From a phage, in sequence record PZ445430.1: a stretch of DNA of 64,000 nt; one strand, given 5' to 3'. Below the pieces are notes generated by a model that made no database searches, was not told the origin of the DNA, and saw only the letters and a program-made list of their open reading frames with translations. Below are positions 17,591-30,583 of this stretch, piece after piece (positions within the stretch are counted from its first letter, which is position 1; every line of letters begins with the position of its first letter). The position numbers were made by a program, and so were the translations under genes.

Positions 17591-17845
17591 AGATTCATAA
17601 ATTAGAGAACAGCGAGCCGATTACGCTGAGTGAGTTTAGTGATTCCTACTAGGATAGCTACTCCACTGAATAGAGTCGGTGAGTTGGAGACTAGTAAGTA
17701 CTCTGAGAGAGGCTACGAGCTAACGCTTATTGCTATTGATAGGGAACTGAAAATCTGCGGAAAACTCGGGAGCTGTCCCGAAATCTCGTAAACTCTTCTC
17801 TAGTTTATGTTAGTGGGGTGTCGAACTGACTTATGTGATAACACT

Positions 17846-17917
17846 GCCGTCCTAGTATAAACGGTAATATCAAACCGTAACTGGTGGAAGATGCAGGTTC
17901 GAATCCTGCGGTCGGAA
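17846..17917 (+). ncRNA. tRNA-like element
   Basis: Canonical T-arm GCAGGTTCGAATCCTGC; acceptor and anticodon stems do not pair; no CCA. Confidence 0.3.
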
Positions 17918-18449
17918 AGAATCAGATAACTCGGGCTTATACCGGATAAGCATTCGCTGCTGTAGTACATACTATGACGGTTCAGGAGGTACGCCTCCTG
18001 ATCAGTATTAGGTTAGAATCGAAACAGCTAAACCACGAGGAAACCTGACGGCCTCAACCAAACTCGGAACTCGGGATCACTGCCTAGTGTGTACCCCGTT
18101 TAACCTGAGACTAGGCATCCAGCTTCGCATCGAAAATCGGAGGTGCGATTCTAACAGACCGCGTGAATATGAGAGTGGGAAACGCTGACATGAGAGATGT
18201 CACTAATGGTGCCCAATAGTACAGGTAATTCGCGATAATTCCTGTTGAGCGGCAGCAGTAGGCTGGGAGTCATGACCTAAGCCTAACCGAGTTCTTCACA
18301 TACGGAGAACATAACCACAAAGTCACCCTGACTTAAACTGGAAGATATTGTCTGACGGAAGGGCTGCAGAGCTTAATCTGAGGGGGCTGACCCTACCTAC
18401 CGTCGGGTATCTTTAAGAGCTTTTATAAGAGTTCTTAAAAATACCTAAA

Positions 18450-19768: not shown

Positions 19769-19919
19769 TTTAAGGCAAAAGAAAAGCCCATAAGTTATTC
19801 AACTAAGGTCTTTAGTATTTAATTCTTTAATTCTTTAGAATCATATACTATTATTGTAGCAACAACGTGCTACCACTAAATGCCTTGAGATTTTTCCACT
19901 AAAAAGTTTAAAAATTCGA

Positions 19920-19948
19920 TTGCTTGAACGCTAAATTCTCTGTATAAT
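19920..19948 (+). promoter_or_regulatory. early promoter (TTGCTT-17-TATAAT)
   Basis: -35 at 19920-19925, -10 at 19943-19948. Confidence 0.6.
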
Positions 19949-19978
19949 ATATTTATAAATTTGAGAGAGGAATCAAAT

Positions 19979-21034
19979 ATGATTAAGACTGGTCTAGTAA
20001 TTGGTAAGTTCGCGCCATTAACGCGTGGTCATATTAACCTAATAAACACAGCAGCAACTATGTGTGAACGAGTTATTGTTGTAGTTAGTCATGATAATCG
20101 TTGGCTGGATAAGCAGAACACACGTGATCAGGAAGTATTACAGTTAAAGAATCGACTTCGTTGGTTAGAACAAACTTACGCGGATATTGAGCACATTTCG
20201 GTAGAGTACATTATTGAAGATGATATTCCTGAATATCCGAATGGTTGGCCGGAATATGCTAGAATCCTTAATGAAAATTACGGACATTTGCCTGAGATCA
20301 CCGTTTTCTCTAGCGAACTAGACTATGATGCAGAATATAAGAAATATCTGCCGAAGTTTGGTCATTATATTGTAGATTCTGATCGGACTCGTGTTCCAAT
20401 CTCAGCTACAATGATTCGTAATGATCTTATGAAGTATTGGGAGTTTCTTCCTAGCGTAGTTCGTAAAGATTACGTGCGTAAGGTTGTAATCATTGGGACT
20501 GAAAGCTCGGGAAAGACTACTTTAACAAAATACCTTGCGAAGCTATACAACACTTCGTGGGTAGAAGAATATGGCCGAACGTATTGTGAAGTTGATCTAG
20601 TTGGTAACGAAAATCTACTTACCAGTGAAGATTACAGTAAAATTGCGTTCAGACACAAAGAGCTAGAGTTTGAGGCAGAACGTACTGCAAATAAGATCAT
20701 GTTTGTAGACACAAATGCTTTTATTACTGAGTTCTACCACAGACTTTATGAACATCGTAAGAATCCTGTGGTTACAGCAATTGCAAAAGAAGAACATTAC
20801 GATTTAGTAATTGTTCTAGCGCCTACTGTTAAGTGGGTAGATGATGGTTTACGTATTAACTCCGATCGTTCAATTACTTCTGAACTGTTCGAGCAGATGA
20901 AGAAAGAATTTCCAAATCAGTTCCCTGAAGGGCGTACTGTTTACATCGACTCCCCGGACTACAAAGTTCGTATGGACGAAGCAGTAAACGCAGTAGACTG
21001 GCTGATTCATCACTTTAACGTTGGAGAGTTTTAA
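19979..21034 (+). CDS. nadR: NadR-like bifunctional NMN adenylyltransferase / ribosylnicotinamide kinase
   Basis: Nucleotidyltransferase motif GKFAPLTRGH at N-terminus; P-loop GTESSGKTT in C-terminal half. Confidence 0.7.
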   Translation: MIKTGLVIGKFAPLTRGHINLINTAATMCERVIVVVSHDNRWLDKQNTRDQEVLQLKNRLRWLEQTYADIEHISVEYIIEDDIPEYPNGWPEYARILNENYGHLPEITVFSSELDYDAEYKKYLPKFGHYIVDSDRTRVPISATMIRNDLMKYWEFLPSVVRKDYVRKVVIIGTESSGKTTLTKYLAKLYNTSWVEEYGRTYCEVDLVGNENLLTSEDYSKIAFRHKELEFEAERTANKIMFVDTNAFITEFYHRLYEHRKNPVVTAIAKEEHYDLVIVLAPTVKWVDDGLRINSDRSITSELFEQMKKEFPNQFPEGRTVYIDSPDYKVRMDEAVNAVDWLIHHFNVGEF

Positions 21035-21035
21035 T

Positions 21036-21713
21036 ATGACTAACTATCTTGTAAATGACTTTAAAAACTGGAAACCTTTGGAATATCTGTGGCTGTTTAT
21101 AGCAGTCGCCTTTATTAGTTTAGCAAACTATAATGGTACAGCTCTAGATTGGGCTACTGCAATAACCAATGTGGTTTGTGTTATTCTGGTTGCAAAAGGA
21201 CGTGTTTCCAACTATATTTGGGGCTTAGTGGGTGTTCTTACATATGGTATTACAGCTTTAAACGCAGATCTTTATGGTAACGCTGCACTAAACCTGCTAT
21301 ACTACGTTCCTATGCAGTTTTATGGAATGTACTTATGGCATAAAAATAAGCCAAGTAATCTGCCAGATGTTCCAACTAAGTTTCTGACTAAAGCCCAAGC
21401 TCTGCTGACTCTAGGGATTCTAGCAGTAGCCACGTTAGGGTATGGTAGTTTCTTAGCTACTACAGCTGATCCATTCCCAATGCTCGATGCATTTACTGCG
21501 GTTGGTAGTGTGATCGCTATGTGGCTTATGGTTAAGCAGTATGCCGAGCAGTGGCTGATCTGGATTGCTATTAACATTGGTACTGTGTACATTTGGCTTG
21601 TAACTGCTCAATCTACAGGTGCATCTTATGCAATCCTAGCAATGTGGCTAGTATTCTTAGGTAACTCTATTATGGGAGCCTATAAAGGATACTTTGTACG
21701 CGTTAACAAATAA
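21036..21713 (+). CDS. pnuC: PnuC-like nicotinamide riboside transporter
   Basis: About 226 aa polytopic membrane protein coupled to nadR-like gene. Confidence 0.65.
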   Translation: MTNYLVNDFKNWKPLEYLWLFIAVAFISLANYNGTALDWATAITNVVCVILVAKGRVSNYIWGLVGVLTYGITALNADLYGNAALNLLYYVPMQFYGMYLWHKNKPSNLPDVPTKFLTKAQALLTLGILAVATLGYGSFLATTADPFPMLDAFTAVGSVIAMWLMVKQYAEQWLIWIAINIGTVYIWLVTAQSTGASYAILAMWLVFLGNSIMGAYKGYFVRVNK

Positions 21714-21722
21714 AGTAGTTAT

Positions 21723-21745
21723 AGCCCTCGCTTAGAGGGCTATTA
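21723..21745 (+). terminator. rho-independent terminator
   Basis: Hairpin agccctc-gctta-gagggct then T-rich. Confidence 0.5.
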
Positions 21746-21760
21746 TACAGAAATTTTCAC

Positions 21761-21789
21761 TTGCTTAATATAGAAAATTTCTGTATAAT
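21761..21789 (+). promoter_or_regulatory. early promoter (TTGCTT-17-TATAAT)
   Basis: -35 at 21761-21766, -10 at 21784-21789. Confidence 0.6.
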
Positions 21790-21819
21790 ATATTTATAAA
21801 TTCGAGAGAGGAATCAAAC

Positions 21820-22116
21820 ATGAAACGCATTGTACTTGCATTGACTCTAGTATCTACTTCTGTATTTGCTGCTCCGCAACAGGAACTTTGTCAAGTTCAG
21901 GTTTGTAATAAGCTAGAACGATTTACTCTAAACATTTGGTCCCATATTAAAGATAATATGGGTGAACAGTGTTTTGATATTGTTCTGCCAAAAGAACAGG
22001 CTATTCCTGGTGCTGTTCTTAGCTCAGAATCACGTTGGTGGCAGGGTTCTTCTATCAATCCAACTAAGAAGTCAGTGACACGTATCAAACAAGTATATCA
22101 GTGCAAGGTTCAGTAA
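21820..22116 (+). CDS. secreted protein
   Basis: Signal peptide MKRIVLALTLVSTSVFAAP. Confidence 0.5.
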   Translation: MKRIVLALTLVSTSVFAAPQQELCQVQVCNKLERFTLNIWSHIKDNMGEQCFDIVLPKEQAIPGAVLSSESRWWQGSSINPTKKSVTRIKQVYQCKVQ

Positions 22117-22124
22117 AATTTCAC

Positions 22125-22153
22125 TTGCTTAATGTCGAAATTTTCTGTATAAT
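22125..22153 (+). promoter_or_regulatory. early promoter (TTGCTT-17-TATAAT) ahead of tRNA genes
   Basis: -35 at 22125-22130, -10 at 22148-22153. Confidence 0.6.
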
Positions 22154-22167
22154 ATATTCATAAATTC

Positions 22168-22261
22168 GGAAGATTAACCCTAATGGTAAGGGAGCTGTTT
22201 GCTAAACAGCCAGTAGCTGTGGAGACACGGTGTGCCAGTTCGAATCTGGCATCTTCCTCCA
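22168..22261 (+). tRNA. tRNA-Ser(GCT)
   Basis: Acceptor ggaagat/atcttcc; anticodon arm gctgt-TTGCTAA-acagc; long variable arm; CCA encoded. Confidence 0.75.
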
Positions 22262-22266
22262 GATTT

Positions 22267-22344
22267 GGTTCTCAAGCTCATTTGGTATGAGCCGTCGCCT
22301 CATAAGCGAAAGGTAGGTAGGTTCGAATCCTCCGGGAGCCACCA
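22267..22344 (+). tRNA. tRNA(CAT), Met or Ile-lysidine
   Basis: T-loop TTCGAAT; anticodon loop CTCATAA; CCA encoded. Confidence 0.65.
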
Positions 22345-22361
22345 ATTAATTAGGAGACTAT

Positions 22362-22547
22362 ATGTCACGCTTTCGAGAAATTGCTCAAGAGCTAGAAGAA
22401 TGTATGTGTACTGAATGTTGGGGTTCTGGCACTCAAAATGATGCTGAACCTGGGGACATTTTCTATAACGAATGGGAATGTCCTACCTGTAAAGGTTCTG
22501 GCATTAACCCTAATTATGCAATTTCTTTTGATATTGAGCGAGGCTAA
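22362..22547 (+). CDS. small Cys-rich (zinc-ribbon-like) protein
   Basis: AGGAG RBS; CxxC..CxxC pattern. Confidence 0.5.
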   Translation: MSRFREIAQELEECMCTECWGSGTQNDAEPGDIFYNEWECPTCKGSGINPNYAISFDIERG

Positions 22548-22548
22548 A

Positions 22549-22887
22549 ATGGATATTTTTACAACTCCGGCAGTCAACCTTTTAGGTGTAGGTCTGTTCC
22601 AAGCTACCATCTATCGTATTGATGATACCACAGATGTAGTAACGTTCATTGTACCAGAGTTCTTCCTAGAAAAGTTCTTTGAAGAGTTTGAGCAGTTTCG
22701 TGAAGAACACAATGCTCATTCCGATATGGAAGATCTAGCAGCTATGTTCCCTGCGGTTTACGGCTATATCTTTGAAGGTAATGGCCTAGATCTTAATAAA
22801 TCTGAACTCGTTGAACTTAACTGGGGCATCAATTTTGAAGTTGGCTCTCCATTCCCTCGATATTTCCAGGGTTTAGAGATTCGCTAA
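22549..22887 (+). CDS. hypothetical protein
   Basis: Internal ATG of track ORF 22438..22887 with GAGG RBS. Confidence 0.5.
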   Translation: MDIFTTPAVNLLGVGLFQATIYRIDDTTDVVTFIVPEFFLEKFFEEFEQFREEHNAHSDMEDLAAMFPAVYGYIFEGNGLDLNKSELVELNWGINFEVGSPFPRYFQGLEIR

Positions 22888-22895
22888 GATTACAT

Positions 22896-22972
22896 GGGGG
22901 TGTAATCGAATTGGCATAGGTACTGGACTTAAAATTCAGGTTTTGTGGGTTCGAATCCCACCACCCCTACCA
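22896..22972 (+). tRNA. tRNA-Leu(TAA), short type-I-like
   Basis: Acceptor gggggtg/cacccct; anticodon arm ctgga-CTTAAAA-ttcag; CCA encoded. Confidence 0.55.
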
Positions 22973-22987
22973 AATTAAGGAAATAAA

Positions 22988-23131
22988 ATGAAAGCTATTA
23001 AGAAAGCACTGCGTAAATTTATGTACTGTCGTTTTCATAGCATCAAGGCTTCAACTAATGGTACGACTTACGATCGCTATGATCCTAAGTTTGGCTTACA
23101 CTCTAAACAACTGGAGAAAACAAATGGCTAA
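22988..23131 (+). CDS. small hypothetical protein (47 aa)
   Basis: AAGGAAA RBS. Confidence 0.3.
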   Translation: MKAIKKALRKFMYCRFHSIKASTNGTTYDRYDPKFGLHSKQLEKTNG

Positions 23132-23330
23132 TCCTGAAATTACGGCACAACGCTTTATGCTGAAAGGAATTATTGCTGAAGCAGGCATGACAGAAGAAGT
23201 TGCAGATTTTCAAAAGCAATTCCTCAATATTCTCACTCAAGCCAAAGAGCTAGGAGAGAAAGAACATGGCGCGGCTATTATGGCAATCACATTGGTTGGG
23301 CTTGATCTGGCTGAAGAATCAGGAGTTTAA
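23124..23330 (+). CDS. hypothetical protein
   Basis: Internal ATG of track ORF 23058..23330 with GGAGAAAA RBS. Confidence 0.45.
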   Translation: MANPEITAQRFMLKGIIAEAGMTEEVADFQKQFLNILTQAKELGEKEHGAAIMAITLVGLDLAEESGV

Positions 23331-23360
23331 CTCCTCCAAGCAGAAATTTTAAAAATGTAC

Positions 23361-23390
23361 TTGCTTTTTACTTAAGATTTCTGCTATAAT
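23361..23390 (+). promoter_or_regulatory. early promoter (TTGCTT-18-TATAAT)
   Basis: -35 at 23361-23366, -10 at 23385-23390. Confidence 0.55.
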
Positions 23391-23419
23391 AGTTATATAA
23401 GTTGATGAGAGGAATCAGA

Positions 23420-23692
23420 ATGTTAAAACGTTTTGCAGCAACTGGTATTGAAAGCTCAGTATGTAAATCCTGGGGTGGTTGGGAAGGTGAGATCGAGTGG
23501 CTTTATTTCTACAATGTAGAACTTCTTCCAGAGATCAAAGCTCAATGTATTGAGGCTGGTATGGCTCCTGATGCTACGGCTGATGTTGAAATCAGCATGA
23601 ATAAGCTAGAGGGTCGAGTAGTCACTGTTACTGATGAAGGTGAAGAGGTATTCGAACTTCCATTCACTTTGAAAGTCACTCCTGGCTTCTAG
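23420..23692 (+). CDS. hypothetical protein
   Basis: ORF with GAGAGG RBS. Confidence 0.5.
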   Translation: MLKRFAATGIESSVCKSWGGWEGEIEWLYFYNVELLPEIKAQCIEAGMAPDATADVEISMNKLEGRVVTVTDEGEEVFELPFTLKVTPGF

Positions 23693-23731
23693 TAACTGAT
23701 ACAGCACTGAGCAAGTTCTTTAAAATCTTAC

Positions 23732-23760
23732 TTGCTCAGTCCTTCAAAACTTGATATAAT
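23732..23760 (+). promoter_or_regulatory. early promoter (TTGCTC-17-TATAAT) ahead of tRNA block
   Basis: -35 at 23732-23737, -10 at 23755-23760. Confidence 0.55.
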
Positions 23761-23885
23761 AGTTATCTAATTTGGAAAACATATCTGAATGAGAAGTAAC
23801 TAAGCGAGTTGCTTTTAGGGGTAAAGTCAGGATAGCCTGAAATATTCCACCTTGAGTTTAACCGACTTACTTTTCATTCAAATAT

Positions 23886-23966
23886 GGGGGATTGGCTCAG
23901 TGGCGACGGCGCCTGGCTGTAGACCGGGTATATCACGCGGAGGTTCGAGTCCTCCATCTCCCACCA
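23886..23966 (+). tRNA. tRNA-Tyr(GTA)
   Basis: Acceptor gggggat/atctccc; anticodon arm cctgg-CTGTAGA-ccggg; T-loop TTCGAGT; CCA encoded. Confidence 0.7.
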
Positions 23967-23974
23967 AAATTAAT

Positions 23975-24049
23975 GCACCTATCGTCTAATGGTTAGGACA
24001 TCAGGATTTCAATCTGAGAATCGGAGTTCAATTCTCCGTGGGTGTGCCA
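23975..24049 (+). tRNA. tRNA-Glu(TTC)
   Basis: Anticodon loop ATTTCAA; T-loop TTCAATT; CCA encoded. Confidence 0.65.
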
Positions 24050-24058
24050 ATTAATAAT

Positions 24059-24129
24059 TGGGGTACGCATAGGTTGCTAGTGGGCCTCCAAAACCCATGA
24101 AAAGGTTTCGAATACCTTTACCCCTGCCA
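24059..24129 (+). tRNA. tRNA-Trp(CCA)
   Basis: Anticodon loop CTCCAAA; short with mismatched first acceptor pair; CCA encoded. Confidence 0.5.
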
Positions 24130-24135
24130 ATATTT

Positions 24136-24210
24136 GCACCTTTAGCTGAGATGGATTAGCGCTTGCCTGAAGAGCTTGAGAGGTTCGTTCAATTCGAACA
24201 GGGTGCACCA
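24136..24210 (+). tRNA. tRNA-Phe(GAA)
   Basis: D-stem gctg/tagc; anticodon loop CTGAAGA with two U-U mismatches in stem; CCA encoded. Confidence 0.55.
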
Positions 24211-24227
24211 ATTTGAAGGAGATGCTG

Positions 24228-24500
24228 ATGCATCCTGAAAACTTCTTTATATACTGTACTAGTCTTTTGCTTAAACGCCGGATTAATAAAGTATATCACT
24301 ACAGAGCTAGTCAACAGCCTTATGTTTATGATTCTAGTGGAGATCATATTCCACTTGAGCAACTAGGGACTGATTATATGGTTTTGAAGCACTTTAATGA
24401 GGCGAAGATCTCTAGCGTTCATAACCGACAAAACTCTAAAACGTGGTGGCATAAGAAGCGTAAGAAAGGCATCAAATTTCTTAAAAATGTAGTTGCTTAA
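24228..24500 (+). CDS. hypothetical basic protein
   Basis: ATG 6 nt after AAGGAG; 3' end overlaps -35 of next promoter. Confidence 0.4.
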   Translation: MHPENFFIYCTSLLLKRRINKVYHYRASQQPYVYDSSGDHIPLEQLGTDYMVLKHFNEAKISSVHNRQNSKTWWHKKRKKGIKFLKNVVA

Positions 24501-24521
24501 ATCCTTAAAGTTCTGTATAAT
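24493..24521 (+). promoter_or_regulatory. early promoter (TTGCTT-17-TATAAT)
   Basis: -35 at 24493-24498, -10 at 24516-24521. Confidence 0.55.
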
Positions 24522-24549
24522 TATTACATAAATTGAACTGGAGAACTAG

Positions 24550-24738
24550 ATGAAAGCACCTAAACCGAAATTAGTTAAGTTCGACTGCTGTGATACTGAA
24601 ATCTTATTTACTAAGTTTGGTGAATTTAAGATGTGTGAATGTGGAACATGTGGTTACGATCATGGTGATGGATATTATTGCAGAACCCTAGGGCCTTCTG
24701 AACTAATCCACTTCTCATGGCCGGAAAGTAAAGAATAA
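24550..24738 (+). CDS. small Cys-rich protein
   Basis: GGAG RBS; multiple Cys pairs. Confidence 0.5.
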   Translation: MKAPKPKLVKFDCCDTEILFTKFGEFKMCECGTCGYDHGDGYYCRTLGPSELIHFSWPESKE

Positions 24739-24740
24739 TA

Positions 24741-24816
24741 CGACCGTTGGCTGAATGGCTTAGGCGGAGGCCTGCAAAACCTCCTTATGTGAGTTCGAAT
24801 CTCATGCGGTCGTCCA
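24741..24816 (+). tRNA. tRNA-Cys(GCA)
   Basis: Acceptor cgaccgt/gcggtcg; anticodon loop CTGCAAA; CCA encoded. Confidence 0.65.
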
Positions 24817-24968
24817 ATTTGCTGAAAGAATTGTTAAATCAATTCAGGCACGCGTAGGAACACTGCCTCAGTAATTGAAAGATGAGGCACGGTTTGGAGA
24901 GGTATGCCGCTACACGCTACGGTGCTAACTCCGTCTAGGTGAAAATCCTAGTCAGCAATATAAATTTA

Positions 24969-25054
24969 GGGTCGTTGGCTGAACGGTTTAAGCGCCGGAC
25001 TGTTAATCCGTATCCGCAAGGATAAAGTAGGTTCAACTCCTACACGGCCCGCCA
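24969..25054 (+). tRNA. tRNA-Asn(GTT) candidate with extra 15-nt arm
   Basis: Acceptor gggtcgt/acggccc; anticodon loop CTGTTAA; extra hairpin atcc-gcaa-ggat; CCA encoded. Confidence 0.5.
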
Positions 25055-25081
25055 ATTTCACTAACAACTGAGGAAATAGAT

Positions 25082-25267
25082 ATGACAACTCGTGCAATTG
25101 CTCTACTAGAAGCTGATCGTGATAATCTGATTAATAATATTAAGGTTCGTGGTAATATTATTAAGGCTCTGAAAGCTGAACTTCTTGAAGAACTTCAAGG
25201 TCAAGTAGAGCGTCGTGAAGCTCTAAAAGAGGTTGAGGAAGCTATCGAAAAACTCAAAACTGAGTAA
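25082..25267 (+). CDS. hypothetical coiled-coil protein
   Basis: ORF with GAGGAAA RBS. Confidence 0.5.
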   Translation: MTTRAIALLEADRDNLINNIKVRGNIIKALKAELLEELQGQVERREALKEVEEAIEKLKTE

Positions 25268-25275
25268 ACAAATTA

Positions 25276-25352
25276 TGCGATCGGGGCTGGCTTGGTAATG
25301 GTACTCCCCTGTCACGGGAGAGAATGTGGGTTCGAATCCCATCGGTCGCGCC
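25276..25352 (+). tRNA. tRNA-Asp(GTC)
   Basis: Acceptor gcgatcg/cggtcgc; anticodon arm ctccc-CTGTCAC-gggag; CCA encoded. Confidence 0.75.
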
Positions 25353-25429
25353 AATTTTTGCAGGACGCTGGTATAGATAACCACCGCGTGGGAAGTGTCT
25401 ATATTTAGAGCACTGCAAAACATAATAAT

Positions 25430-25505
25430 ACATCCATAGCTCAATGGTTAGAGCTACCGCCTCTTAAGCGGAGGGTTCTAGGTTCAAGTCCTAGTGGGTG
25501 TACCA
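25430..25505 (+). tRNA. tRNA-Lys(CTT)
   Basis: D-stem gctc/gagc; anticodon loop CTCTTAA; T-loop TTCAAGT; CCA encoded. Confidence 0.6.
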
Positions 25506-25587
25506 AACATCAGAGCAGCGTGATGTACTGCAAAGACCCAAAGTCCGGGGTGGACTTCTTGATTCAAAGGAGCAGGCATTAATTATC

Positions 25588-25709
25588 ATTCTAGCGTGGT
25601 GGAGAGGGGACACCAGCTTGCCGAGGGTAGAAGCTCGTTCGATTCGAGTGAAAGAATGGTTCTCGTAAATCCGCACAAGTGATAGCAGGTTCAAGTCCTG
25701 CCTAGATTG
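25588..25709 (+). ncRNA. degenerate tRNA-like element (about 120 nt)
   Basis: T-arm gcagg-TTCAAGT-cctgc and second T-loop-like ctcg-TTCGATT-cgag; pairable acceptor 122 nt apart; no CCA. Confidence 0.25.
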
Positions 25710-25718
25710 ACTTATTAT

Positions 25719-25792
25719 GCGTTCGTAGTTAAAAGGTATAATTTTTGGTTGCCAACCAGAAGTTGAGGGTTCGATTCCCTCCGACCGCACCA
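25719..25792 (+). tRNA. tRNA-Gly(GCC)
   Basis: Anticodon arm tttgg-TTGCCAA-ccaga; T-loop TTCGATT; CCA encoded. Confidence 0.65.
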
Positions 25793-26040
25793 AATTTAGG
25801 TTTCTGCTTCCTAGAGAACTGACTCCTAGATAAACAAGGCGATGAGTTTCCGGCCGGTTCTAGTCGCTGAAAATCCTCCCGACCAGGTAGGTGTAAGTAA
25901 ACGAAAGTTTACTTATTAAGTAAGTCCGACACATCGGCGGGTGTGTTCTAGTACTTAAAGAAGGTCTCGCAAACTTTCTCGCTAGCATGAGTTCATAGCT
26001 CGGTGACTTACCTAATAAGTAAATTTATTAAAAAATGTAG

Positions 26041-26069
26041 TTGCTATTTAGCTTAATTCTCTGTATAAT
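26041..26069 (+). promoter_or_regulatory. early promoter (TTGCTA-17-TATAAT)
   Basis: -35 at 26041-26046, -10 at 26064-26069. Confidence 0.6.
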
Positions 26070-26101
26070 ATATTTTATAAAGTGAGTTAACAAAGAATAT
26101 T

Positions 26102-26179
26102 CTCCGTGTAGCTCAGTTTGGCCAGAGCGTTTCGTTTGGGGCGATAGGGTCGGGGGTTCAAATCCTCCCACGGAGACCA
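26102..26179 (+). tRNA. tRNA-Pro(TGG)
   Basis: Acceptor ctccgtg/cacggag; anticodon loop TTTGGGG; CCA encoded. Confidence 0.65.
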
Positions 26180-26185
26180 AACAAT

Positions 26186-26263
26186 TGCGGGTTAGATCTC
26201 TGGTAGAGATCGCTAGTCTCATAAGCTAGAAAGAGGTAGGTTCGATTCCTACACCCGCTTCCA
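26186..26263 (+). tRNA. tRNA(CAT), Met or Ile-lysidine
   Basis: D-stem gatc/gatc; anticodon arm ctagt-CTCATAA-gctag; CCA encoded. Confidence 0.65.
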
Positions 26264-26284
26264 ATTTAATAGAAGGATTTCGAA

Positions 26285-26449
26285 ATGAAATTATTTCGTT
26301 TAAAAGTAAGTGATCTACGTTCTAGCAAAGATCGTAAGAAGTATCCACTAGCTCACTATGGTAAAGATGAAAACGAAGTGATGGCGGAATTTGGTATTAA
26401 TCATCCTTACTTGAAAGTCTACTCTATTAAAGAAGTATACATGTATTAA
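26285..26449 (+). CDS. small hypothetical protein (54 aa)
   Basis: AGAAGGA RBS; lies between tRNA genes. Confidence 0.35.
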   Translation: MKLFRLKVSDLRSSKDRKKYPLAHYGKDENEVMAEFGINHPYLKVYSIKEVYMY

Positions 26450-26451
26450 AT

Positions 26452-26529
26452 TGACCGTTAACTCAACTGGATAAGAGTACCGAGCTTTTACCTCGTAGGT
26501 TCTGGGTTCGAATCCCAGACGGTCAACCA
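26452..26529 (+). tRNA. tRNA-Lys(TTT)
   Basis: Acceptor tgaccgt/acggtca; D-stem actc/gagt; anticodon loop CTTTTAC; CCA encoded. Confidence 0.65.
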
Positions 26530-26546
26530 ATTTAAAGGAATTTGTT

Positions 26547-26864
26547 ATGAATATTAACAAAGTTCTAGAAACAATATCAGAAATGTCTGGTAGAGCTGGA
26601 AAACGCTTTACTGAACTATGCATTAAAAATCAAAAAGTACCAGAACATCAATGTCATTATTGTCGAGACTGTGAACAATACCATGAAATGTGTATGGTTG
26701 AAGATTGGGTCTGGGATCAGATAAGAAAAGAGCAACCCAAAGATATTGTTCTATGTTTTACTTGTATGGAACGACGTTTAGGACGTAAAATTACGCTCAA
26801 AGATCTTAAACATGTTCCCTGTAACGCTCCTTACTTCATTGGCTTTAGAATGGAGAGATTTTAA
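26547..26864 (+). CDS. Cys-rich hypothetical protein
   Basis: AAAGGAA RBS; CHYCRDC and CFTC motifs. Confidence 0.5.
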   Translation: MNINKVLETISEMSGRAGKRFTELCIKNQKVPEHQCHYCRDCEQYHEMCMVEDWVWDQIRKEQPKDIVLCFTCMERRLGRKITLKDLKHVPCNAPYFIGFRMERF

Positions 26865-26997
26865 TGACTATCTGGTTTTATTTAATGAAGCAGAAAATAA
26901 GAGATTCCTATGTATTCTCTGCTGACTTTACAATAGGTATGTTTATAGCAGGTTTCTGTGAATTTGTAGTTGAAGCCTACATCATAGGAAGTCTTTT

Positions 26998-27071
26998 GCT
27001 CGGTTAGTTTAATGGGAGAACCCCGTCTTTACACGGCGGTTGCGATAGTTCGATTCTATCACCGAGTACCA
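26998..27071 (+). tRNA. tRNA-Val(TAC)
   Basis: Anticodon arm ccgtc-TTTACAC-ggcgg; T-loop TTCGATT; CCA encoded. Confidence 0.7.
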
Positions 27072-27096
27072 ATTAACTCAAAATAAGGAATTGCAA

Positions 27097-27450
27097 ATGC
27101 AATTATCAAGCAAGGTTCAAGGCTATTTCGGGCATGTAACAATGGAGTTCGCTATCTCTAAAGGTTGGGACTTCGAACAAGATCTAGCTGAATTCTACAA
27201 AGATATTGATCTGAATGTACCGTACATAGGACTCTCTACTGGTCAAGAGATCACAGAAGGCGATGTGTTCAAGGCAAGTCAAGGTGAGGTAACACCTAGT
27301 TTTGCCGAGTTCTGGTTAGGAATTACTCTGAAAGATGATGCACCGGATGGTGGTGTGGTTATGCAGAGTATGCACTCTGGAAGCTCTGATTACCTTTTCG
27401 TTAGTGACGTTAAGGAAATACAAGAAATCTGCAAAAATGTACTTGCTTGA
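27097..27450 (+). CDS. hypothetical protein
   Basis: AAGGAA RBS; 3' end overlaps -35 of next promoter. Confidence 0.5.
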   Translation: MQLSSKVQGYFGHVTMEFAISKGWDFEQDLAEFYKDIDLNVPYIGLSTGQEITEGDVFKASQGEVTPSFAEFWLGITLKDDAPDGGVVMQSMHSGSSDYLFVSDVKEIQEICKNVLA

Positions 27451-27471
27451 TGCTTAATTTCTTGTTATAAT
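27443..27471 (+). promoter_or_regulatory. early promoter (TTGCTT-17-TATAAT)
   Basis: -35 at 27443-27448, -10 at 27466-27471. Confidence 0.55.
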
Positions 27472-27734
27472 ATTTATATAAATCGATGAGGAGAAATCCT
27501 CATCAAAGTTCACTAAGGTATTAGCTCGACCTAGGACTGGCTGCCAACAAGCACAGTTGCAATTAGACCCCTAATGGCGGGGGGATACTTTGCAATAAGT
27601 TCTAGATTAGTCCACTAGATTCAGCGGCAACTGAATAGTGTATCGGGTTTGTGAAGAGCGGTTATCCTCTACTGGCTAATGTCTGAGGGTAATACGCACA
27701 CCGAGCTAATAGCCTTAGTAAACTTAAAGATTTT

Positions 27735-27808
27735 GGGGATATAGTTTAATGGTAGAACATCTGCCTTGCACGCAGAAGACGAGGGTTCAACTCCCTCTTT
27801 CTCCACCA
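27735..27808 (+). tRNA. tRNA-Ala(TGC)
   Basis: Anticodon arm tctgc-CTTGCAC-gcaga; T-loop TTCAACT; CCA encoded. Confidence 0.7.
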
Positions 27809-27813
27809 AATTC

Positions 27814-27889
27814 GGGGTCATAGGTTATTTGGTTAAACTTACTGCCTTGCAAGCAGTGGAACTCAGTTCAATTCTGAGTGACTCCACCA
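27814..27889 (+). tRNA. tRNA-Ala(TGC), second copy
   Basis: Anticodon arm actgc-CTTGCAA-gcagt; T-loop TTCAATT; CCA encoded. Confidence 0.6.
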
Positions 27890-27908
27890 AACAAATTAAG
27901 GAAATAAT

Positions 27909-28127
27909 ATGGTATTCTTAGTAGCCTCTGTAGTTCTTGCAGCTTTAGCACTAGCTATCTATTTTAGAACTGTTAAAGATTTAGCTAAAGAAAAGAAAAC
28001 TTTCTTTACTGATTATTCTTGGGGCGCTCCATATACTGTCCGCTTTATCAGCTTAGAAGCTATGCTGATAATGGTATTCAGTGGCGTAGGTTCCATTGTT
28101 GCGGGATTATTATTTATTTCTAACTAA
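27909..28127 (+). CDS. small membrane protein
   Basis: AAGGAAA RBS; two hydrophobic helices. Confidence 0.5.
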   Translation: MVFLVASVVLAALALAIYFRTVKDLAKEKKTFFTDYSWGAPYTVRFISLEAMLIMVFSGVGSIVAGLLFISN

Positions 28128-28134
28128 ATAAAAT

Positions 28135-28215
28135 GGGGATGTGGCGAAATTGGCAGACGCGCTAGATTTAGGTTCTAGTCTCCGGGTGTGGGTTCGAGTC
28201 CCTCCATCCCTACCA
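28135..28215 (+). tRNA. tRNA-Leu(TAG)
   Basis: Anticodon arm ctaga-TTTAGGT-tctag; 9-nt variable region; CCA encoded. Confidence 0.65.
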
Positions 28216-28389
28216 AACATTGGATTAACTCATGATGAAAACTCCTATAACTGATATCTGGTTAGCTGTTAATACGTTAACTAAAGAGTATGTGTTTATA
28301 GAGTATGGTCAGAGGTATGACCAAAAGATGTATAATCTCATACTTCCAGTATCCGCTAATGAAGTTTATGATTTAATCCTGAGATCTAC

Positions 28390-28482
28390 GGAAGAGCAAA
28401 TCGACTTGGTGACGAAAACCACTTGGAAAGTGGCTGACTTGTGAAAGCAGGCTTGAGAGTTCGAATCTCTCTTCTTCCGCCA
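28390..28482 (+). tRNA. tRNA-Ser(GGA)
   Basis: Acceptor ggaagag/ttcttcc; anticodon loop TTGGAAA; long variable arm; T-loop TTCGAAT; CCA encoded. Confidence 0.55.
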
Positions 28483-28496
28483 AACAAAATTTATAG

Positions 28497-28591
28497 GGTA
28501 GGTCAATCCAACGGCTGGCGCTGGACTCCGACTTGAAATCGGTTGATCGTAGTGATACGGTGTAAGGGTTCGATCCCCTTACCTACCCCCA
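28497..28591 (+). tRNA. tRNA-Ser(TGA)
   Basis: Acceptor ggtaggt/acctacc; anticodon loop CTTGAAA; long variable arm; CCA encoded. Confidence 0.6.
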
Positions 28592-28596
28592 AATCT

Positions 28597-28728
28597 TGAA
28601 GTATGCCGGAATCGGTAGACGGGGCTTCCTAAAGGGCGTAAGAGGAACATCCACTCCTCATAAGATACCCGAAAACGAGGCTGAGATAAATGGTCTATCT
28701 CGTGAAGGTTCAAGTCCTTCTGCTTCTT
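28597..28728 (+). ncRNA. tRNA-like element with Leu-type D-arm (about 130 nt)
   Basis: D-arm ccgg-AATCGGTAGAC-gggg, T-arm gaagg-TTCAAGT-ccttc, pairable acceptor; extra 45 nt internally; no CCA. Confidence 0.25.
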
Positions 28729-28906
28729 GATATTCAATGGCTCAAAGAGTAACGGTGCACCTTTCTAGAGAATTTTCTGGGCGAGAATCCAGAAGTAATC
28801 AACTAGTTGTTAGTGTGATGAGTTTCGGAGAGCCGCCACAATTGAAGTCTTTAGAATGGGTATCGCCCTTTAGCCCCTCCGAAAGGGATAACTAGAGATT
28901 TCAATT

Positions 28907-28983
28907 GTGGCTATATCATAATTGGTTAATGATCCTGATTGTGAATCAGGCCTATGTGGATTCGAATTCCACTAGCCACCCCA
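28907..28983 (+). tRNA. tRNA-His(GTG)
   Basis: Acceptor gtggcta/tagccac; anticodon arm cctga-TTGTGAA-tcagg; CCA encoded. Confidence 0.75.
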
Positions 28984-28989
28984 AATATT

Positions 28990-29064
28990 GCGTCCTTATT
29001 TCAATGGAAAGAATGTAAAGCTACGAACTTTACGATCGGGGTTCGATTCCCTGAGGATGCACCA
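28990..29064 (+). tRNA. tRNA-Arg(ACG)
   Basis: Anticodon arm taaag-CTACGAA-cttta; T-loop TTCGATT; CCA encoded. Confidence 0.75.
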
Positions 29065-29088
29065 ATTAACTTATATAGGAAATAAAAT

Positions 29089-29289
29089 ATGGCTGATTTC
29101 TGCAAAGAATGCTCTATCGATATGTGGGGCAAAGATACTGGTGATCTTTCTGGTCTGATTACAGAAGCCGAAGTTAAAGAAGGCTATGGTGCTGTTGTAA
29201 TCTGTGAAGGTTGTGGTATTATTCGTGTTGATCATAATGGTAAACGTCTAGAAGAACCAGATCCAATTGCCACGGTTCCTGTAGAATAA
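29089..29289 (+). CDS. small Cys-rich protein
   Basis: AGGAAA RBS; CKEC..CEGC. Confidence 0.5.
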   Translation: MADFCKECSIDMWGKDTGDLSGLITEAEVKEGYGAVVICEGCGIIRVDHNGKRLEEPDPIATVPVE

Positions 29290-29296
29290 AAATTAT

Positions 29297-29372
29297 TGGG
29301 ATGTAGATCAATTGGCAGATCGTCGGCCTCTGACTCCGAAGGTTCCACGTTCGATCCGTGGCATCCCAGCCA
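29297..29372 (+). tRNA. tRNA-Gln(CTG)
   Basis: D-stem gatc/gatc; anticodon loop CTCTGAC with C-U mismatch closing the stem; CCA encoded. Confidence 0.65.
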
Positions 29373-29378
29373 AATACT

Positions 29379-29454
29379 TGGAGAGTAGTGTAACGGTTAG
29401 CACAACGGCCTTTGACTCCGTTAATGGTAGGTTCGATTCCTCCTTCTCCAGCCA
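29379..29454 (+). tRNA. tRNA-Gln(TTG)
   Basis: Anticodon loop CTTTGAC with same C-U mismatch; CCA encoded. Confidence 0.65.
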
Positions 29455-29460
29455 ATTTAT

Positions 29461-29535
29461 GCGTGATTAGTTCAGTGGCTAGAATAACTGGCTTCCAACC
29501 AGTAGACACGAGTTCGACTCTCGTATCCCGCACCA
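29461..29535 (+). tRNA. tRNA-Gly(TCC)
   Basis: Anticodon arm actgg-CTTCCAA-ccagt; T-loop TTCGACT; CCA encoded. Confidence 0.7.
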
Positions 29536-29550
29536 ATTTAAGGAAACGTT

Positions 29551-29757
29551 ATGGACGTTTTTGAGTTTCGTAATAAAAACCCTAATAGGCGAGTTTTAAT
29601 TATTGGTGAAACATACCGAGCTTATGAGCAGGAAGACGGTTCGGTTTTATTAAATGATGAAAAGCAAGGCTATAGCTTTCATCCGGAAGAAACATATGAA
29701 GAATTTCGTACTAAGTTTCTTTTACCAGACTGGCTAGCAATAGCTGAGCAAAGATAA
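29551..29757 (+). CDS. hypothetical protein
   Basis: AAGGAAA RBS. Confidence 0.5.
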   Translation: MDVFEFRNKNPNRRVLIIGETYRAYEQEDGSVLLNDEKQGYSFHPEETYEEFRTKFLLPDWLAIAEQR

Positions 29758-29764
29758 CCCGAAG

Positions 29765-29923
29765 ATGGCTGATAATCTAAAGGTAGATAAACGAATGAAG
29801 CACGTTGAGGTTGAGTTGGGTGAAGAACGTTTAAAACTCTCCTTCGAATTCTTACAACAGTTGGCTATGACAGTAATGTCTGATAAGTCTCCTGTATTTG
29901 AAAAAGAAATTCCGTTGAAATAA
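29765..29923 (+). CDS. small hypothetical protein (52 aa)
   Basis: Short ORF, weak RBS. Confidence 0.3.
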   Translation: MADNLKVDKRMKHVEVELGEERLKLSFEFLQQLAMTVMSDKSPVFEKEIPLK

Positions 29924-29933
29924 CGGGTTTATT

Positions 29934-30008
29934 GCTCCTAAAGCATTGCTGGCGATGCAGTTGCCTTGTAAGCATCTGAACCGGGTTCGATTCCTGGTGG
30001 GAGCACCA
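29934..30008 (+). tRNA. tRNA-Thr(TGT)
   Basis: D-stem gcat/atgc; anticodon loop CTTGTAA; T-loop TTCGATT; CCA encoded. Confidence 0.65.
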
Positions 30009-30023
30009 AATTTAAAAATTCAT

Positions 30024-30582: not shown

Positions 30583-30583
30583 T

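What the first reader, a model, noticed from the sequence alone, without database searches (positions are those of the whole stretch)
24817..24968. Recurring ORF-free segments between tRNA genes as small-RNA candidates
Segments of 80-400 nt without ORFs sit between tRNAs or behind early promoters: 15660-16039, 23761-23885, 24817-24968, 25353-25429, 25800-26030, 27480-27734, 28729-28906, 30833-31015. Several contain long-range inverted repeats, for example ttttgcag/ctgcaaaa at 25355/25414 and ccacaattgaa/ttcaattgtgg at 28822/28895, and 27480-27500 has a hairpin right after a promoter -10.
Basis: seen in the sequence. Interest (0 to 1): 0.45.

Follow-up and report, generated by a model that had tools for sequence, protein, structure and literature searches.

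The report
Unannotated tRNA-shaped RNA gene in phage
The 152-base gap between two tRNA genes of this T5-like phage holds a conserved gene for a roughly 140-nt RNA folded like a tRNA, with a three-way junction in place of the anticodon loop; it joins the long-known T5 "stable RNAs" whose function is still unknown.

Summary
The window is Escherichia phage SuperGirl (Bas29, a T5-like Epseptimavirus). The focal gap, 24817-24968, has no credible ORF and no Rfam match. Its core, 24819-24958, folds into a cloverleaf. This has a 7-bp acceptor-like stem, a D-like hairpin, a 5-bp T-like arm next to the 3' strand, and a 10-bp central arm carrying a three-way junction. Homologues occur in about 220 phage records, in T5-like phages and in the unrelated Mydovirus group. 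They always sit inside tRNA arrays, but with different neighbouring tRNAs. In 13 distinct sequences, 99.3% of cells pair and 16 of 42 pairs carry compensatory changes; slid controls give 0-2. G-U pairs place the RNA on the + strand, the strand of the tRNAs. No GenBank record I inspected annotates it.

Five other listed segments overlap homologues of RNAs that the phage 5 and BF23 tRNA-region records annotate as "stable" or "tRNA-like" RNAs of unknown function (RNA IV, 2H, I, III, the end of RNA1). Two further homologues (RNA2, RNAX) lie outside the listed segments.

The small-RNA reading is therefore supported. The phenomenon is known; the focal RNA is a new member. Processing by tRNA enzymes and any decoy or scaffold function are inferred, not shown.

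The parts
24819..24958 (+). Core of the tRNA-shaped RNA gene (P1 5' strand to P1 3' strand, 140 nt). The discrete cassette is bounded by CCAAtt[TGCTGA...TCAGCAATATAAA]TTTAGGG.
   Evidence: MFE fold; RNAalifold consensus; covariation counts; indel boundary against phages S126 and SPC35, which lack it.
24819..24825 (+). P1 5' strand (UUGCUGA). It pairs with 24952-24958 to form a 7-bp acceptor-like stem.
   Evidence: 7 pairs, 4 with changes on both sides, 100% paired in 13 distinct sequences.
24952..24958 (+). P1 3' strand (UCAGCAA), followed by U-A-U-A. No CCA is encoded.
24828..24845 (+). P2, a D-arm-like hairpin (GAAUUG-UUAAAU-CAAUUC).
   Evidence: 6 pairs, 5 with compensatory changes.
24847..24857 (+). 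P3 5' strand (GGCAC-G-CGUAG). It pairs with 24917-24926 and occupies the anticodon-stem position.
   Evidence: 10 pairs, 2 compensatory and 8 invariant.
24917..24926 (+). P3 3' strand (CUACG-GUGCU), preceded by the invariant junction CUACACG (24910-24916).
24864..24889 (+). P4 hairpin on the three-way junction (UGCCUCA-12 nt loop-UGAGGCA). The loop keeps UGARAG across clades.
   Evidence: 3 of 5 counted pairs are compensatory, including U-G to U-A within Epseptimavirus.
24890..24909 (+). P5 hairpin (CGGU-UUGGAGAGGUAU-GCCG), the second arm of the three-way junction.
   Evidence: 4 invariant pairs, which are therefore uninformative. It appears independently in the single-sequence fold of the Mydovirus copy.
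24929..24933 (+). Candidate pseudoknot partner (CUCCG in the 8-nt variable-loop position) of the P5 loop at 24895-24899 (UGGAG).
   Evidence: One compensatory pair (A-U to G-C), one one-sided change, and one pair broken in Mydovirus. Support is weak.
24935..24951 (+). P6, a T-arm-like hairpin (CUAGG-UGAAAAU-CCUAG) abutting the P1 3' strand.
   Evidence: 5 pairs, 1 compensatory; the loop is invariant. The model aligns P1 and P6 to genuine tRNAs.
24493..24521 (+). Likely early promoter of the transcription unit (TTGCTT, 17 nt, TATAAT). It is in the position of promoter P14b of phage 5 and BF23.
   Evidence: Sequence and positional correspondence with annotated P14b. The consensus scan did not flag it, because the -35 element matches only 3 of 6.
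24741..24816 (+). Upstream tRNA-Cys. Its encoded CCA is followed by AUU and then P1.
24969..25054 (+). Downstream tRNA-Asn.
25587..25711 (+). Homologue of RNA2 ('tRNA-like RNA with unknown functions'), 92% identical to phage 5.
25912..26024 (+). Homologue of RNA IV ('stable RNA with unknown functions').
   Evidence: The consensus structure has 8 compensatory pairs.
27507..27727 (+). Homologue of RNA 2H, closed by a duplex of about 22 bp.
28595..28739 (+). Homologue of RNA1 ('tRNA-like RNA with unknown functions').
28738..28906 (+). Homologues of RNA I (ends GAGCCGCCA at 28838) and RNA III (28839-28906, closed by CAAUUGAA.../...UUCAAUUG).
   Evidence: Position and conserved ends; folds.
17603..18449 (+). 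Homologue of RNAX, upstream of tRNA-Arg.

Best explanation
24819-24958 is a gene for a stable non-coding RNA of about 140 nt built on a tRNA frame.

Shown. It is a conserved, discrete cassette found only inside phage tRNA arrays. It folds on the tRNA strand into a cloverleaf. The outer shell is a 7-bp acceptor-like stem, a D-like hairpin, and a 5-bp T-like arm stacked next to the 3' strand, with an 8-nt variable-loop position. In place of the anticodon stem-loop there is a 10-bp stem topped by a three-way junction (P4, P5) with invariant junction nucleotides, possibly locked by a pseudoknot.

Inferred.
(i) It is transcribed from the early promoter at 24493-24521 as part of the polycistronic ORF-tRNA-Cys-element-tRNA-Asn precursor.
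(ii) The host tRNA-maturation enzymes excise it. RNase E would cut in the AU-rich spacers after CCA and after P1. RNase P would cut at the 5' end of the 7+5-bp acceptor/T minihelix. Exonucleases would trim the 3' end, and CCA might be added.
(iii) The tRNA shell acts as a natural 'tRNA scaffold' that gives correct processing and nuclease resistance. The conserved three-way-junction domain is the working part. It most likely binds a protein that recognises tRNA-like RNA, for example as a decoy or inhibitor.

The function is unknown, as it is for the other T5-group stable RNAs.
For: - Fold: z = -3.79.
- The same architecture comes from RNAalifold on 6 sequences, with 15 of 39 pairs compensatory, and from the Mydovirus copy folded alone.
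- On 13 distinct sequences: 99.3% of cells paired, 16 of 42 pairs changed on both sides against 6.1 +/- 1.8 in shuffles (0 of 500 reach it), and 0-2 in structures slid by +/-1-3 columns.
- G-U pairs (34-113 and 80-93 in all sequences; 53-74 in 6) would be A-C mismatches on the other strand.
- Present in about 220 phage records, at 97-100% identity within Epseptimavirus/Tequintavirus relatives, about 88% in Sugarlandvirus and 71-80% in Mydovirus. The neighbours differ: Cys-X-Asn, Asn-X-Cys, Ser-X-Ser.
- SuperGirl against phage 5: the element is 97.4% identical, while the flanking tRNA-Cys is about 89% and tRNA-Asn lower still.
- Clean presence/absence cassette.
- tRNA-likeness: with filters off, the model's next-best hits are true tRNAs aligned through P1, P2 and P6. 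ARAGORN in intron mode at a relaxed threshold draws a cloverleaf with a 63-nt insert.
- Precedents: curated records annotate several 'tRNA-like' and 'stable' RNAs in the same gene cluster, and T4 has rnaC/rnaD in its tRNA cluster.
- Established knowledge: RNase E then RNase P maturation of polycistronic tRNA precursors (PMC2190699, abstract). A 7-bp acceptor stem is a major RNase P determinant, and the tRNA fold protects against nucleases (PMC4201824). RNAs grafted onto a tRNA anticodon stem are processed and stabilised in E. coli (PMC3401473).
Against: - I had no transcript, processing or phenotype data.
- Effective diversity is only about four lineages, and 23 of 42 pairs never vary, so P5, P3b and most of P6 rest on thermodynamics.
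- Many T5-like phages, including T5 and BF23, do without the element, so it is dispensable.
- No CCA is encoded, although every tRNA in the cluster encodes one.
- The T-like loop (UGAAAAU) and the D-like loop lack the canonical T-psi-C and GG residues, so recognition by tRNA enzymes is not guaranteed.
- The Pushchino annotators, who marked eight other RNAs in phage 5, did not mark this one.
Confidence: 0.7

Rival explanations
1. A cis-acting structured spacer. The fold exists only to help processing or folding of the neighbouring tRNAs, or to act as a nuclease entry or insulation site, and the excised piece is discarded.
For: It lies between two tRNAs with the same AU-rich junctions as other spacers. 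No function in trans is known. The tRNA-like shell would attract RNase P and RNase E (inference).
Against: Many relatives have tRNA-Cys and tRNA-Asn only 10-12 nt apart without it. The cassette works next to different tRNAs in different phages. Invariant loops and junctions (CGCGUAGG, CUACACG, UGAAAAU) go beyond what a spacer needs.
Confidence: 0.12
2. A decaying tRNA pseudogene that acquired an insertion. It is neutral, and looks conserved only because it spread recently by recombination.
For: The cloverleaf periphery. Identity is very high (97-100%) within the main clade. T5-like tRNA arrays are mosaic and contain pseudo-tRNAs.
Against: Sixteen pairs keep pairing through double changes across lineages down to about 71% identity. 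Changes concentrate in stems and are compensated, and 99.3% of cells are paired. The element is retained in two unrelated phage groups. The insert itself is the most conserved part.
Confidence: 0.08
3. A 12-codon mini-ORF (AUG at 24904 to UGA at 24940-24942, preceded by GGAGAGG) is the functional unit, for example as a leader or micro-peptide.
For: The ORF, with its AUG and UGA positions, is kept in both clades: MPLHATVLTPSR and MPLHATGLTLSW (read).
Against: Three of the four codons that differ between clades are non-synonymous. Every one of those nucleotide changes lies in a predicted pair, and all but one (the pseudoknot pair 83-119, broken in Mydovirus) are matched by a change in the partner. 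The first six codons, AUGCCGCUACACGCUACG, are invariant at every third position, the opposite of coding drift. SD-to-AUG spacing is 1-4 nt. The putative SD and start codon lie inside P5 and the pseudoknot.
Confidence: 0.03
4. A DNA-level element such as a miniature inverted-repeat mobile element, a homing-endonuclease target or a recombination module, with no RNA role.
For: Terminal inverted repeat TTGCTGA/TCAGCAA. Presence/absence polymorphism. Homing endonuclease genes are frequent in these arrays.
Against: G-U pairs make the structure strand-specific. Five internal helices covary, which a DNA element does not require. There are no target-site duplications beyond the generic AT-rich spacer. 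No copies exist elsewhere in the genome or in 185,579 bacterial and archaeal genomes.
Confidence: 0.03

Closest known systems
RNA1, RNA2 and RNA3, the 'tRNA-like RNAs with unknown functions' of the T5-group tRNA gene region (GenBank AJ604531 phage 5; NC_042564 BF23)
   Same: Same gene cluster, same strand and the same kind of placement between tRNA genes. They are 73-145 nt, closed by an acceptor-like stem with a T-arm before the 3' strand, and have extra domains inside. Function is unknown.
   Different: No detectable sequence or model similarity: the covariance model finds no paralogue in the window or in the phage 5, BF23 or T5 regions. RNA1 and RNA2 keep a canonical GGUUCRAnUCC T-loop, whereas this one has GGUGAAAAUCC. 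It is absent from T5 and BF23, and unannotated in phage 5 although present there.
Phage T4 species 1 RNA (rnaC, 139 nt) and species 2 RNA (rnaD), small stable RNAs in the T4 tRNA cluster
   Same: A stable RNA of about 140 nt encoded next to tRNAs. rnaC has a T-arm immediately before a 3' strand that can pair with the 5' end, and long internal arms. Function is unknown. That rnaC is matured by tRNA-processing enzymes is from my own memory and was not checked here.
   Different: No homology: the model gives no hit on the T4 region and BLAST finds none. The internal architecture differs.
YrlA-type bacterial Y RNAs (tRNA mimics bound by Rsr/Ro60)
   Same: A non-coding RNA containing a tRNA-like module (D-, T- and acceptor-like stems). 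[quoted passage not shown] The tRNA fold is proposed to protect against nucleases (PMC4201824).
   Different: The topology is permuted. In YrlA the 5' and 3' ends form the Ro-binding helix, and the acceptor-like stem is a closed hairpin. There is no rsr gene nearby here, no Rfam hit to any family, and no GNCGAAN0-1G motif (not searched formally).
Engineered 'tRNA scaffold' chimeras (Ponchon and Dardel)
   Same: [quoted passage not shown] The chimera is processed by the cellular tRNA machinery and protected from nucleases in E. coli (PMC3401473). This is the same design as P1/P2/P6 plus the P3-P5 insert.
   Different: This is an artificial construct, so the comparison is an analogy of mechanism and not a family. 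Processing of the phage RNA has not been tested.
Canonical tRNA (Rfam RF00005)
   Same: 7-bp acceptor stem, 2-nt connector, D-like arm, 1-nt connector, central stem, 8-nt variable region and 5-bp T-like stem with a 7-nt loop. The genomic context and flanks match those of the neighbouring tRNAs.
   Different: No anticodon loop, no encoded CCA, and non-canonical T and D loops. It is not detected by RF00005 even at E = 10 on the isolated segment, or by ARAGORN at default settings.

Membership tests
tRNA (RF00005) | Scores at or above the family gathering threshold (29 bits) or is called by ARAGORN | tested here: not met
   No RF00005 hit on 24810-24975 even at E up to 10. ARAGORN default finds nothing. 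It appears only with intron mode at an 80% threshold, as a 'tRNA-Pyl(cta)' with a 63-nt insert.
tRNA (RF00005) | 7-nt anticodon loop on a 5-bp stem | tested here: not met
   The central stem continues into a three-way junction (P4, P5) supported by covariation.
tRNA (RF00005) | Acceptor stem of 7 bp coaxial with a 5-bp T stem and a 7-nt T loop | tested here: met
   P1 is 7 bp and P6 is 5 bp with a 7-nt loop, and they are contiguous. The loop sequence UGAAAAU is non-canonical.
tRNA (RF00005) | 3' CCA, which is encoded in all tRNAs of this phage | tested here: not met
   P1 is followed by UAUA, UACU, UACA or UAAU. Post-transcriptional CCA addition cannot be tested here.
T5-group stable or tRNA-like RNAs (RNAX, I, III, IV, 2H; RNA1-3) | Encoded in the early tRNA gene region, on the tRNA strand, between tRNA genes or ORFs, in a T5-like phage | tested here: met
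T5-group stable or tRNA-like RNAs (RNAX, I, III, IV, 2H; RNA1-3) | Sequence homology to one of the eight annotated RNAs | tested here: not met
   BLAST mapping of all eight onto the window places none at 24817-24968. The model finds no related copy in the phage 5, BF23 or T5 regions other than the Cys-Asn spacer of phage 5 itself.
T5-group stable or tRNA-like RNAs (RNAX, I, III, IV, 2H; RNA1-3) | Accumulates as a discrete stable RNA in infected cells | not testable with these tools
   No expression data available. The original papers are not in the searchable library.
T4 species 1 RNA (rnaC) | Sequence or structure homology to rnaC | tested here: not met
   No model hit on T4 68000-74000. BLAST of both clade variants finds no T4-like phage apart from one probably chimeric record.
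YrlA / bacterial Y RNA | Match to an Rfam Y-RNA family, and linkage to an rsr (Ro60) gene | tested here: not met
   No Rfam match of any kind. The neighbours are tRNAs and small ORFs.

The most novel reading that the evidence does not exclude
The RNA is a natural 'tRNA-scaffolded' effector. The tRNA shell hijacks host tRNA maturation to produce a stable RNA. The invariant, pseudoknotted three-way junction then binds and neutralises a host factor that recognises tRNAs, for example a tRNA-cleaving defence nuclease, or sequesters a tRNA-processing or tRNA-modifying enzyme. On this reading it is an RNA-based anti-defence cassette traded between unrelated phage families (Demerecviridae and Mydovirus) through their tRNA arrays.
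Probability: 0.15. Interest if true: 0.75.

Novelty: new member of a known kind. Interest (0 to 1): 0.42.

Why it matters
Phage tRNA arrays are now seen as counter-defence loci. The BF23 paper reports that T5 tRNA-Tyr rescues the toxicity of retron Eco7 (Ec78), and a 2024 Nature paper listed is titled [quoted passage not shown]. The non-tRNA RNAs embedded in these arrays have nevertheless been left as "unknown function" for decades and are missing from Rfam and from most genome annotations.

This element is an unusually clean test case. It is short, strongly structured and a discrete cassette. Natural phages with and without it exist, and it occurs in a BASEL-collection phage that grows on E. 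coli K-12. Defining it also corrects annotation, since some CDS calls in SuperGirl sit on RNA genes, and it would seed a new RNA family model.

Tried and rejected
- Rfam 15 at gathering thresholds on the whole window, at E up to 5 on 15000-31500 and at E up to 10 on the isolated segment. Only tRNAs and noise came back.
- Covariance model R1 searched for paralogues in the window, with filters on and off, and for distant homologues in the tRNA arrays of T5, BF23, T4, phAPEC8, Providencia PSTCR6 and Serratia CBH8. None were found.
- Pattern scans of IMG/VR, JGI metagenomes and 185,579 GTDB genomes. Only the same T5-like and Mydovirus lineages appeared. The three genome hits to the 19-mer were chance matches, with no model hit and no tRNAs nearby.
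- A second BLAST from the Mydovirus copy added only one record, a probably chimeric assembly carrying a Sugarlandvirus-type array.
- Hammerhead-like CUGA at the 5' end: rejected, because it is not conserved in Mydovirus.
- Intron-containing tRNA: rejected. There is no anticodon loop, the insert is too small for a group I intron, and the insert is the most conserved part.
- Mini-ORF: rejected, for the reasons given under rivals.
- Terminator or attenuator: no U-tract and no terminator call on the + strand.
- Literature searches for T5 stable RNAs, T4 species 1 RNA and tRNA-like RNAs in Demerecviridae found no description of this element.
- Segment 25354-25429 could not be tested by covariation. 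It is in 30 records, all at least 97% identical.

Full report
**Identity of the window.** Bases 23600-26200 are 100% identical to Escherichia phage SuperGirl (MZ501105, BASEL phage Bas29; Demerecviridae, Epseptimavirus). Window coordinate equals record coordinate minus 47303. The region 17800-30900 is the early tRNA gene region typical of T5-like phages. ARAGORN and Rfam find 27-28 tRNAs, all on the + strand, interspersed with small ORFs and early promoters.

**The observation.** The focal segment 24817-24968 fills the gap between tRNA-Cys (24741-24816) and tRNA-Asn (24969-25054).
- Only mechanical ORFs that begin inside the flanking tRNAs touch its ends, and GenBank annotates nothing there.
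- It folds far better than dinucleotide shuffles: -46.7 kcal/mol, z = -3.79, 0 of 200 as good.
- Several other listed segments also fold better than shuffles, but 30833-31015 does not.
- The quoted inverted repeats exist, but two coordinates are off: ccacaattgaa is at 28836 and ttcaattgtgg at 28900.
- The segment 28729-28906 is not ORF-free. It carries the annotated 52-aa CDS bas29_0121, which has no ORF counterpart in phage 5 or T5.

**Anatomy of the focal element.** The MFE fold, the RNAalifold consensus of six diverse homologues and the single-sequence fold of the most distant homologue all give the same structure.
- P1: 7 bp, 24819-24825 with 24952-24958.
- A 2-nt connector.
- P2 hairpin: 6 bp, 24828-24845.
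- A 1-nt connector.
- P3: 5+5 bp with one bulge, 24847-24857 with 24917-24926.
- P3 carries a three-way junction with hairpins P4 (24864-24889) and P5 (24890-24909) and an invariant 7-nt junction, CUACACG.
- An 8-nt single-stranded stretch.
- P6: 5 bp with a 7-nt loop, 24935-24951, directly abutting the P1 3' strand.

This is the tRNA cloverleaf with the anticodon loop replaced by a domain of about 60 nt. Three results back that description. With filters off, the covariance model built from the family picks the phage's genuine tRNAs (His, Lys, Ile, Thr, Pro) as its next-best hits, aligning them through P1, P2, P6 and the flanks. ARAGORN in intron mode at a relaxed threshold draws a cloverleaf with a 63-nt insert. 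The flanks (CCA-AUU before, AU-rich after) match those of the neighbouring tRNAs.

It is not a tRNA. There is no anticodon loop and no encoded CCA, although every tRNA here encodes one. The loops are non-canonical (T-like UGAAAAU; D-like UUAAAU without GG). There is no RF00005 hit even at E = 10.

**Comparative evidence.** BLAST finds the element in about 220 phage records.
- Epseptimavirus and some Tequintavirus relatives, including phage 5: 97-100% identical.
- Enterobacter phage KKP_3711: 90%.
- Yersinia phiR2-01 and Klebsiella Sugarlandvirus: 86-88%.
- Klebsiella Mydovirus (Vequintavirinae, 137-147 kb myoviruses): 71-80%.

It is always inside a tRNA array, but the neighbours differ: Cys-X-Asn in SuperGirl, Asn-X-Cys in Spivey, Ser-X-Ser in Mydovirus. 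Many T5-like phages lack it. S126 and SPC35 have tRNA-Cys and tRNA-Asn 10-12 nt apart. The alignment shows a clean cassette boundary, independent of which tRNA-Cys and tRNA-Asn alleles flank it. T5 and BF23 carry an ORF there instead. No copy was found in 185,579 bacterial and archaeal genomes. Metagenome and IMG/VR scans returned only the same lineages.

**Covariation.** On the model-based alignment of 14 copies (13 distinct), the proposed structure has 99.3% of cells paired. Sixteen of 42 pairs change on both sides, against 6.1 +/- 1.8 in column shuffles (0 of 500 as high). Structures slid by 1-3 columns give 0-2 such pairs and 27-45% pairing. P1 (4 of 7), P2 (5 of 6), P4 (3 of 5), P3a (2 of 5) and P6 (1 of 5) carry compensatory changes. 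P5 and P3b never vary. A pseudoknot between the P5 loop (UGGAG) and the variable-loop position (CUCCG) has one compensatory pair, one one-sided change and one broken pair, so it remains tentative.

Invariant G-U pairs would be A-C on the opposite strand, so the functional strand is that of the tRNAs.

Two limits apply. There are only about four independent lineages, and the alignment was fitted to the model. However, the MAFFT alignment A1, made before any structure was imposed, already shows the same compensations.

**The wider finding.** Two curated GenBank records of T5-group tRNA regions annotate eight non-tRNA RNAs. The records are AJ604531 (phage 5) and NC_042564 (BF23).
- Marked 'stable RNA with unknown functions': RNAX, RNA I, RNA III, RNA IV and RNA 2H.
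- Marked 'tRNA-like RNA with unknown functions': RNA1, RNA2 and RNA3.

Mapping them onto the window gives:

| Annotated RNA | Window coordinates |
|---|---|
| RNAX | about 17603-18449 |
| RNA2 | 25587-25711 |
| RNA IV | about 25912-26024 |
| RNA 2H | about 27507-27727 |
| RNA1 | 28595-28739 |
| RNA I | about 28738-28838 (ends GAGCCGCCA) |
| RNA III | 28839-28906 |

The RNA IV homologue has its own covariation, 8 compensatory pairs. SuperGirl's RNA 2H, RNA I and RNA III copies keep conserved ends around replaced internal hairpins.

The rest of the list is weaker. 25354-25429 is a tRNA-sized hairpin closed by 8 bp, but it occurs in only 30 near-identical records, so no comparative test is possible. 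23761-23885 is a strongly folded leader upstream of tRNA-Tyr, 96% conserved in T5. 15660-16039 is mainly an intergenic region ending in a promoter, with one piece shared with Mydovirus. 30833-31015 shows no signal. The focal spacer is present in phage 5 (97.4% identical) but was not annotated there.

**Mechanism.** Shown: this is a selected RNA structure with a tRNA-like outer shell, encoded as an autonomous cassette inside tRNA operons. Everything else is inferred.
- Transcription would start at the early promoter at 24493-24521, which is in the position of annotated P14b, giving one precursor with tRNA-Cys and tRNA-Asn.
- RNase E would cut in the AU-rich spacers and RNase P at the 5' end of the 7+5-bp minihelix. 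This follows the standard E. coli pathway (PMC2190699) and the role of a 7-bp acceptor stem in RNase P recognition (PMC4201824).
- The tRNA frame would give stability. The engineered tRNA-scaffold method shows that RNAs grafted in place of the anticodon stem-loop are processed and protected in E. coli (PMC3401473).
- The invariant three-way junction would be the functional module.

What that module binds is unknown. A protein that recognises tRNA-like RNA is my best guess. An anti-defence decoy role is attractive because T5-like tRNAs are reported to counter tRNA-targeting defences, but it has no direct support.

**Rivals.**
- A purely cis-acting spacer is unlikely. Relatives dispense with the element, and it functions beside different tRNAs.
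- A decaying pseudogene is contradicted by the compensatory pattern and by the insert being the best-conserved part.
- A conserved 12-codon ORF exists (24904-24942). Its inter-clade changes are mostly non-synonymous, and all lie in predicted RNA pairs, all but one with a matching change in the partner. Its first six codons are invariant at every third position.
- A DNA-level mobile element does not explain strand-specific G-U pairs or five covarying internal helices.

**Comparison with known systems.**
- It works like the T5-group tRNA-like RNAs and like T4 species 1 RNA (rnaC), a 139-nt stable RNA with a T-arm in the T4 tRNA cluster. It shares no detectable homology with any of them.
- YrlA Y RNAs are also tRNA mimics, but they have a permuted topology and are linked to rsr.
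- It fails the defining tests for a tRNA.

I therefore class it as a new member of a known kind: phage tRNA-cluster stable, tRNA-like RNAs of unknown function. It is absent from Rfam 15 and unannotated in every record I inspected.

**Verdict.** The small-RNA interpretation is supported. The general phenomenon is old. The focal RNA is a well-supported new family candidate of moderate interest.

Noticed in passing
window 24060-24131: A tRNA-Trp(CCA)-like gene (GGGGUA...UACCCCU-G-CCA, anticodon loop CUCCAAA, weak D arm) fills the Glu-Phe gap. BF23's curated record annotates a tRNA-Trp at this position (a Trp gene also occupies the slot in phage 5), but ARAGORN, Rfam and the SuperGirl annotation all miss it.
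   Followed up: partly
window 28390-28482 and 28497-28591: Two tRNA-Ser genes are annotated in SuperGirl and marked 'pseudo' in T5 AY587007. ARAGORN does not call them, and they reach only sub-threshold tRNA-Sec scores (26.5 and 38.3 bits against a gathering score of 47).
   Followed up: no
window 28737-28895 (CDS bas29_0121) and 25498-25668 (CDS bas29_0105): These annotated 'hypothetical protein' CDSs sit on the RNA I/RNA III homologues and on the tRNA-Lys 3' end plus RNA2. The homologous RNA I/III region of phage 5 and T5 has no ORF of 25 aa or more, so at least bas29_0121 is probably a spurious call.
   Followed up: partly
window 15894-16010; L020 5554-5666: A non-coding stretch about 73% identical between T5-like phages and Mydovirus BIS47. 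In BIS47 it lies directly upstream of tRNA-Thr. One visible compensatory change is CCTAG...CTAGG to CCTGG...CCAGG. This may be a second RNA module shared by the two phage groups.
   Followed up: partly
window 27507-27528 with 27706-27727: The RNA 2H homologue is closed by a near-perfect duplex of about 22 bp, the kind of helix RNase III cuts. Its internal hairpins are replaced relative to T5 and phage 5, while the core is conserved.
   Followed up: no
window 17846-17917: A borderline tRNA hit (29.3 bits) lies inside the RNAX-homologous region. T5 annotates a pseudo-tRNA in a comparable position upstream of tRNA-Arg (correspondence not checked). An annotated minus-strand CDS (bas29_0080) overlaps it.
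   Followed up: no
window 23781-23885: The leader between an early promoter and tRNA-Tyr is closed by a stem of about 14 bp (CUGAAUGAGAAGUAA.../...UUACUUUUCAUUCA), z = -4.7, and is 96% conserved in T5. It is not annotated as an RNA in BF23 or phage 5.
   Followed up: partly
window 24969-25054: SuperGirl's tRNA-Asn is 86 nt with a long variable arm, which is unusual for tRNA-Asn. Alleles in relatives are 78-83 nt.
   Followed up: no
L028 (PP355768.1); records OR848495, OR847827 and MG065642: A 261-kb 'Straboviridae' Klebsiella phage record carries a Sugarlandvirus-type tRNA array, so it is probably a chimeric assembly. Records named as Listeria and Campylobacter phages contain T5-like Salmonella-phage sequence and are probably mislabelled or contaminated.
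   Followed up: no
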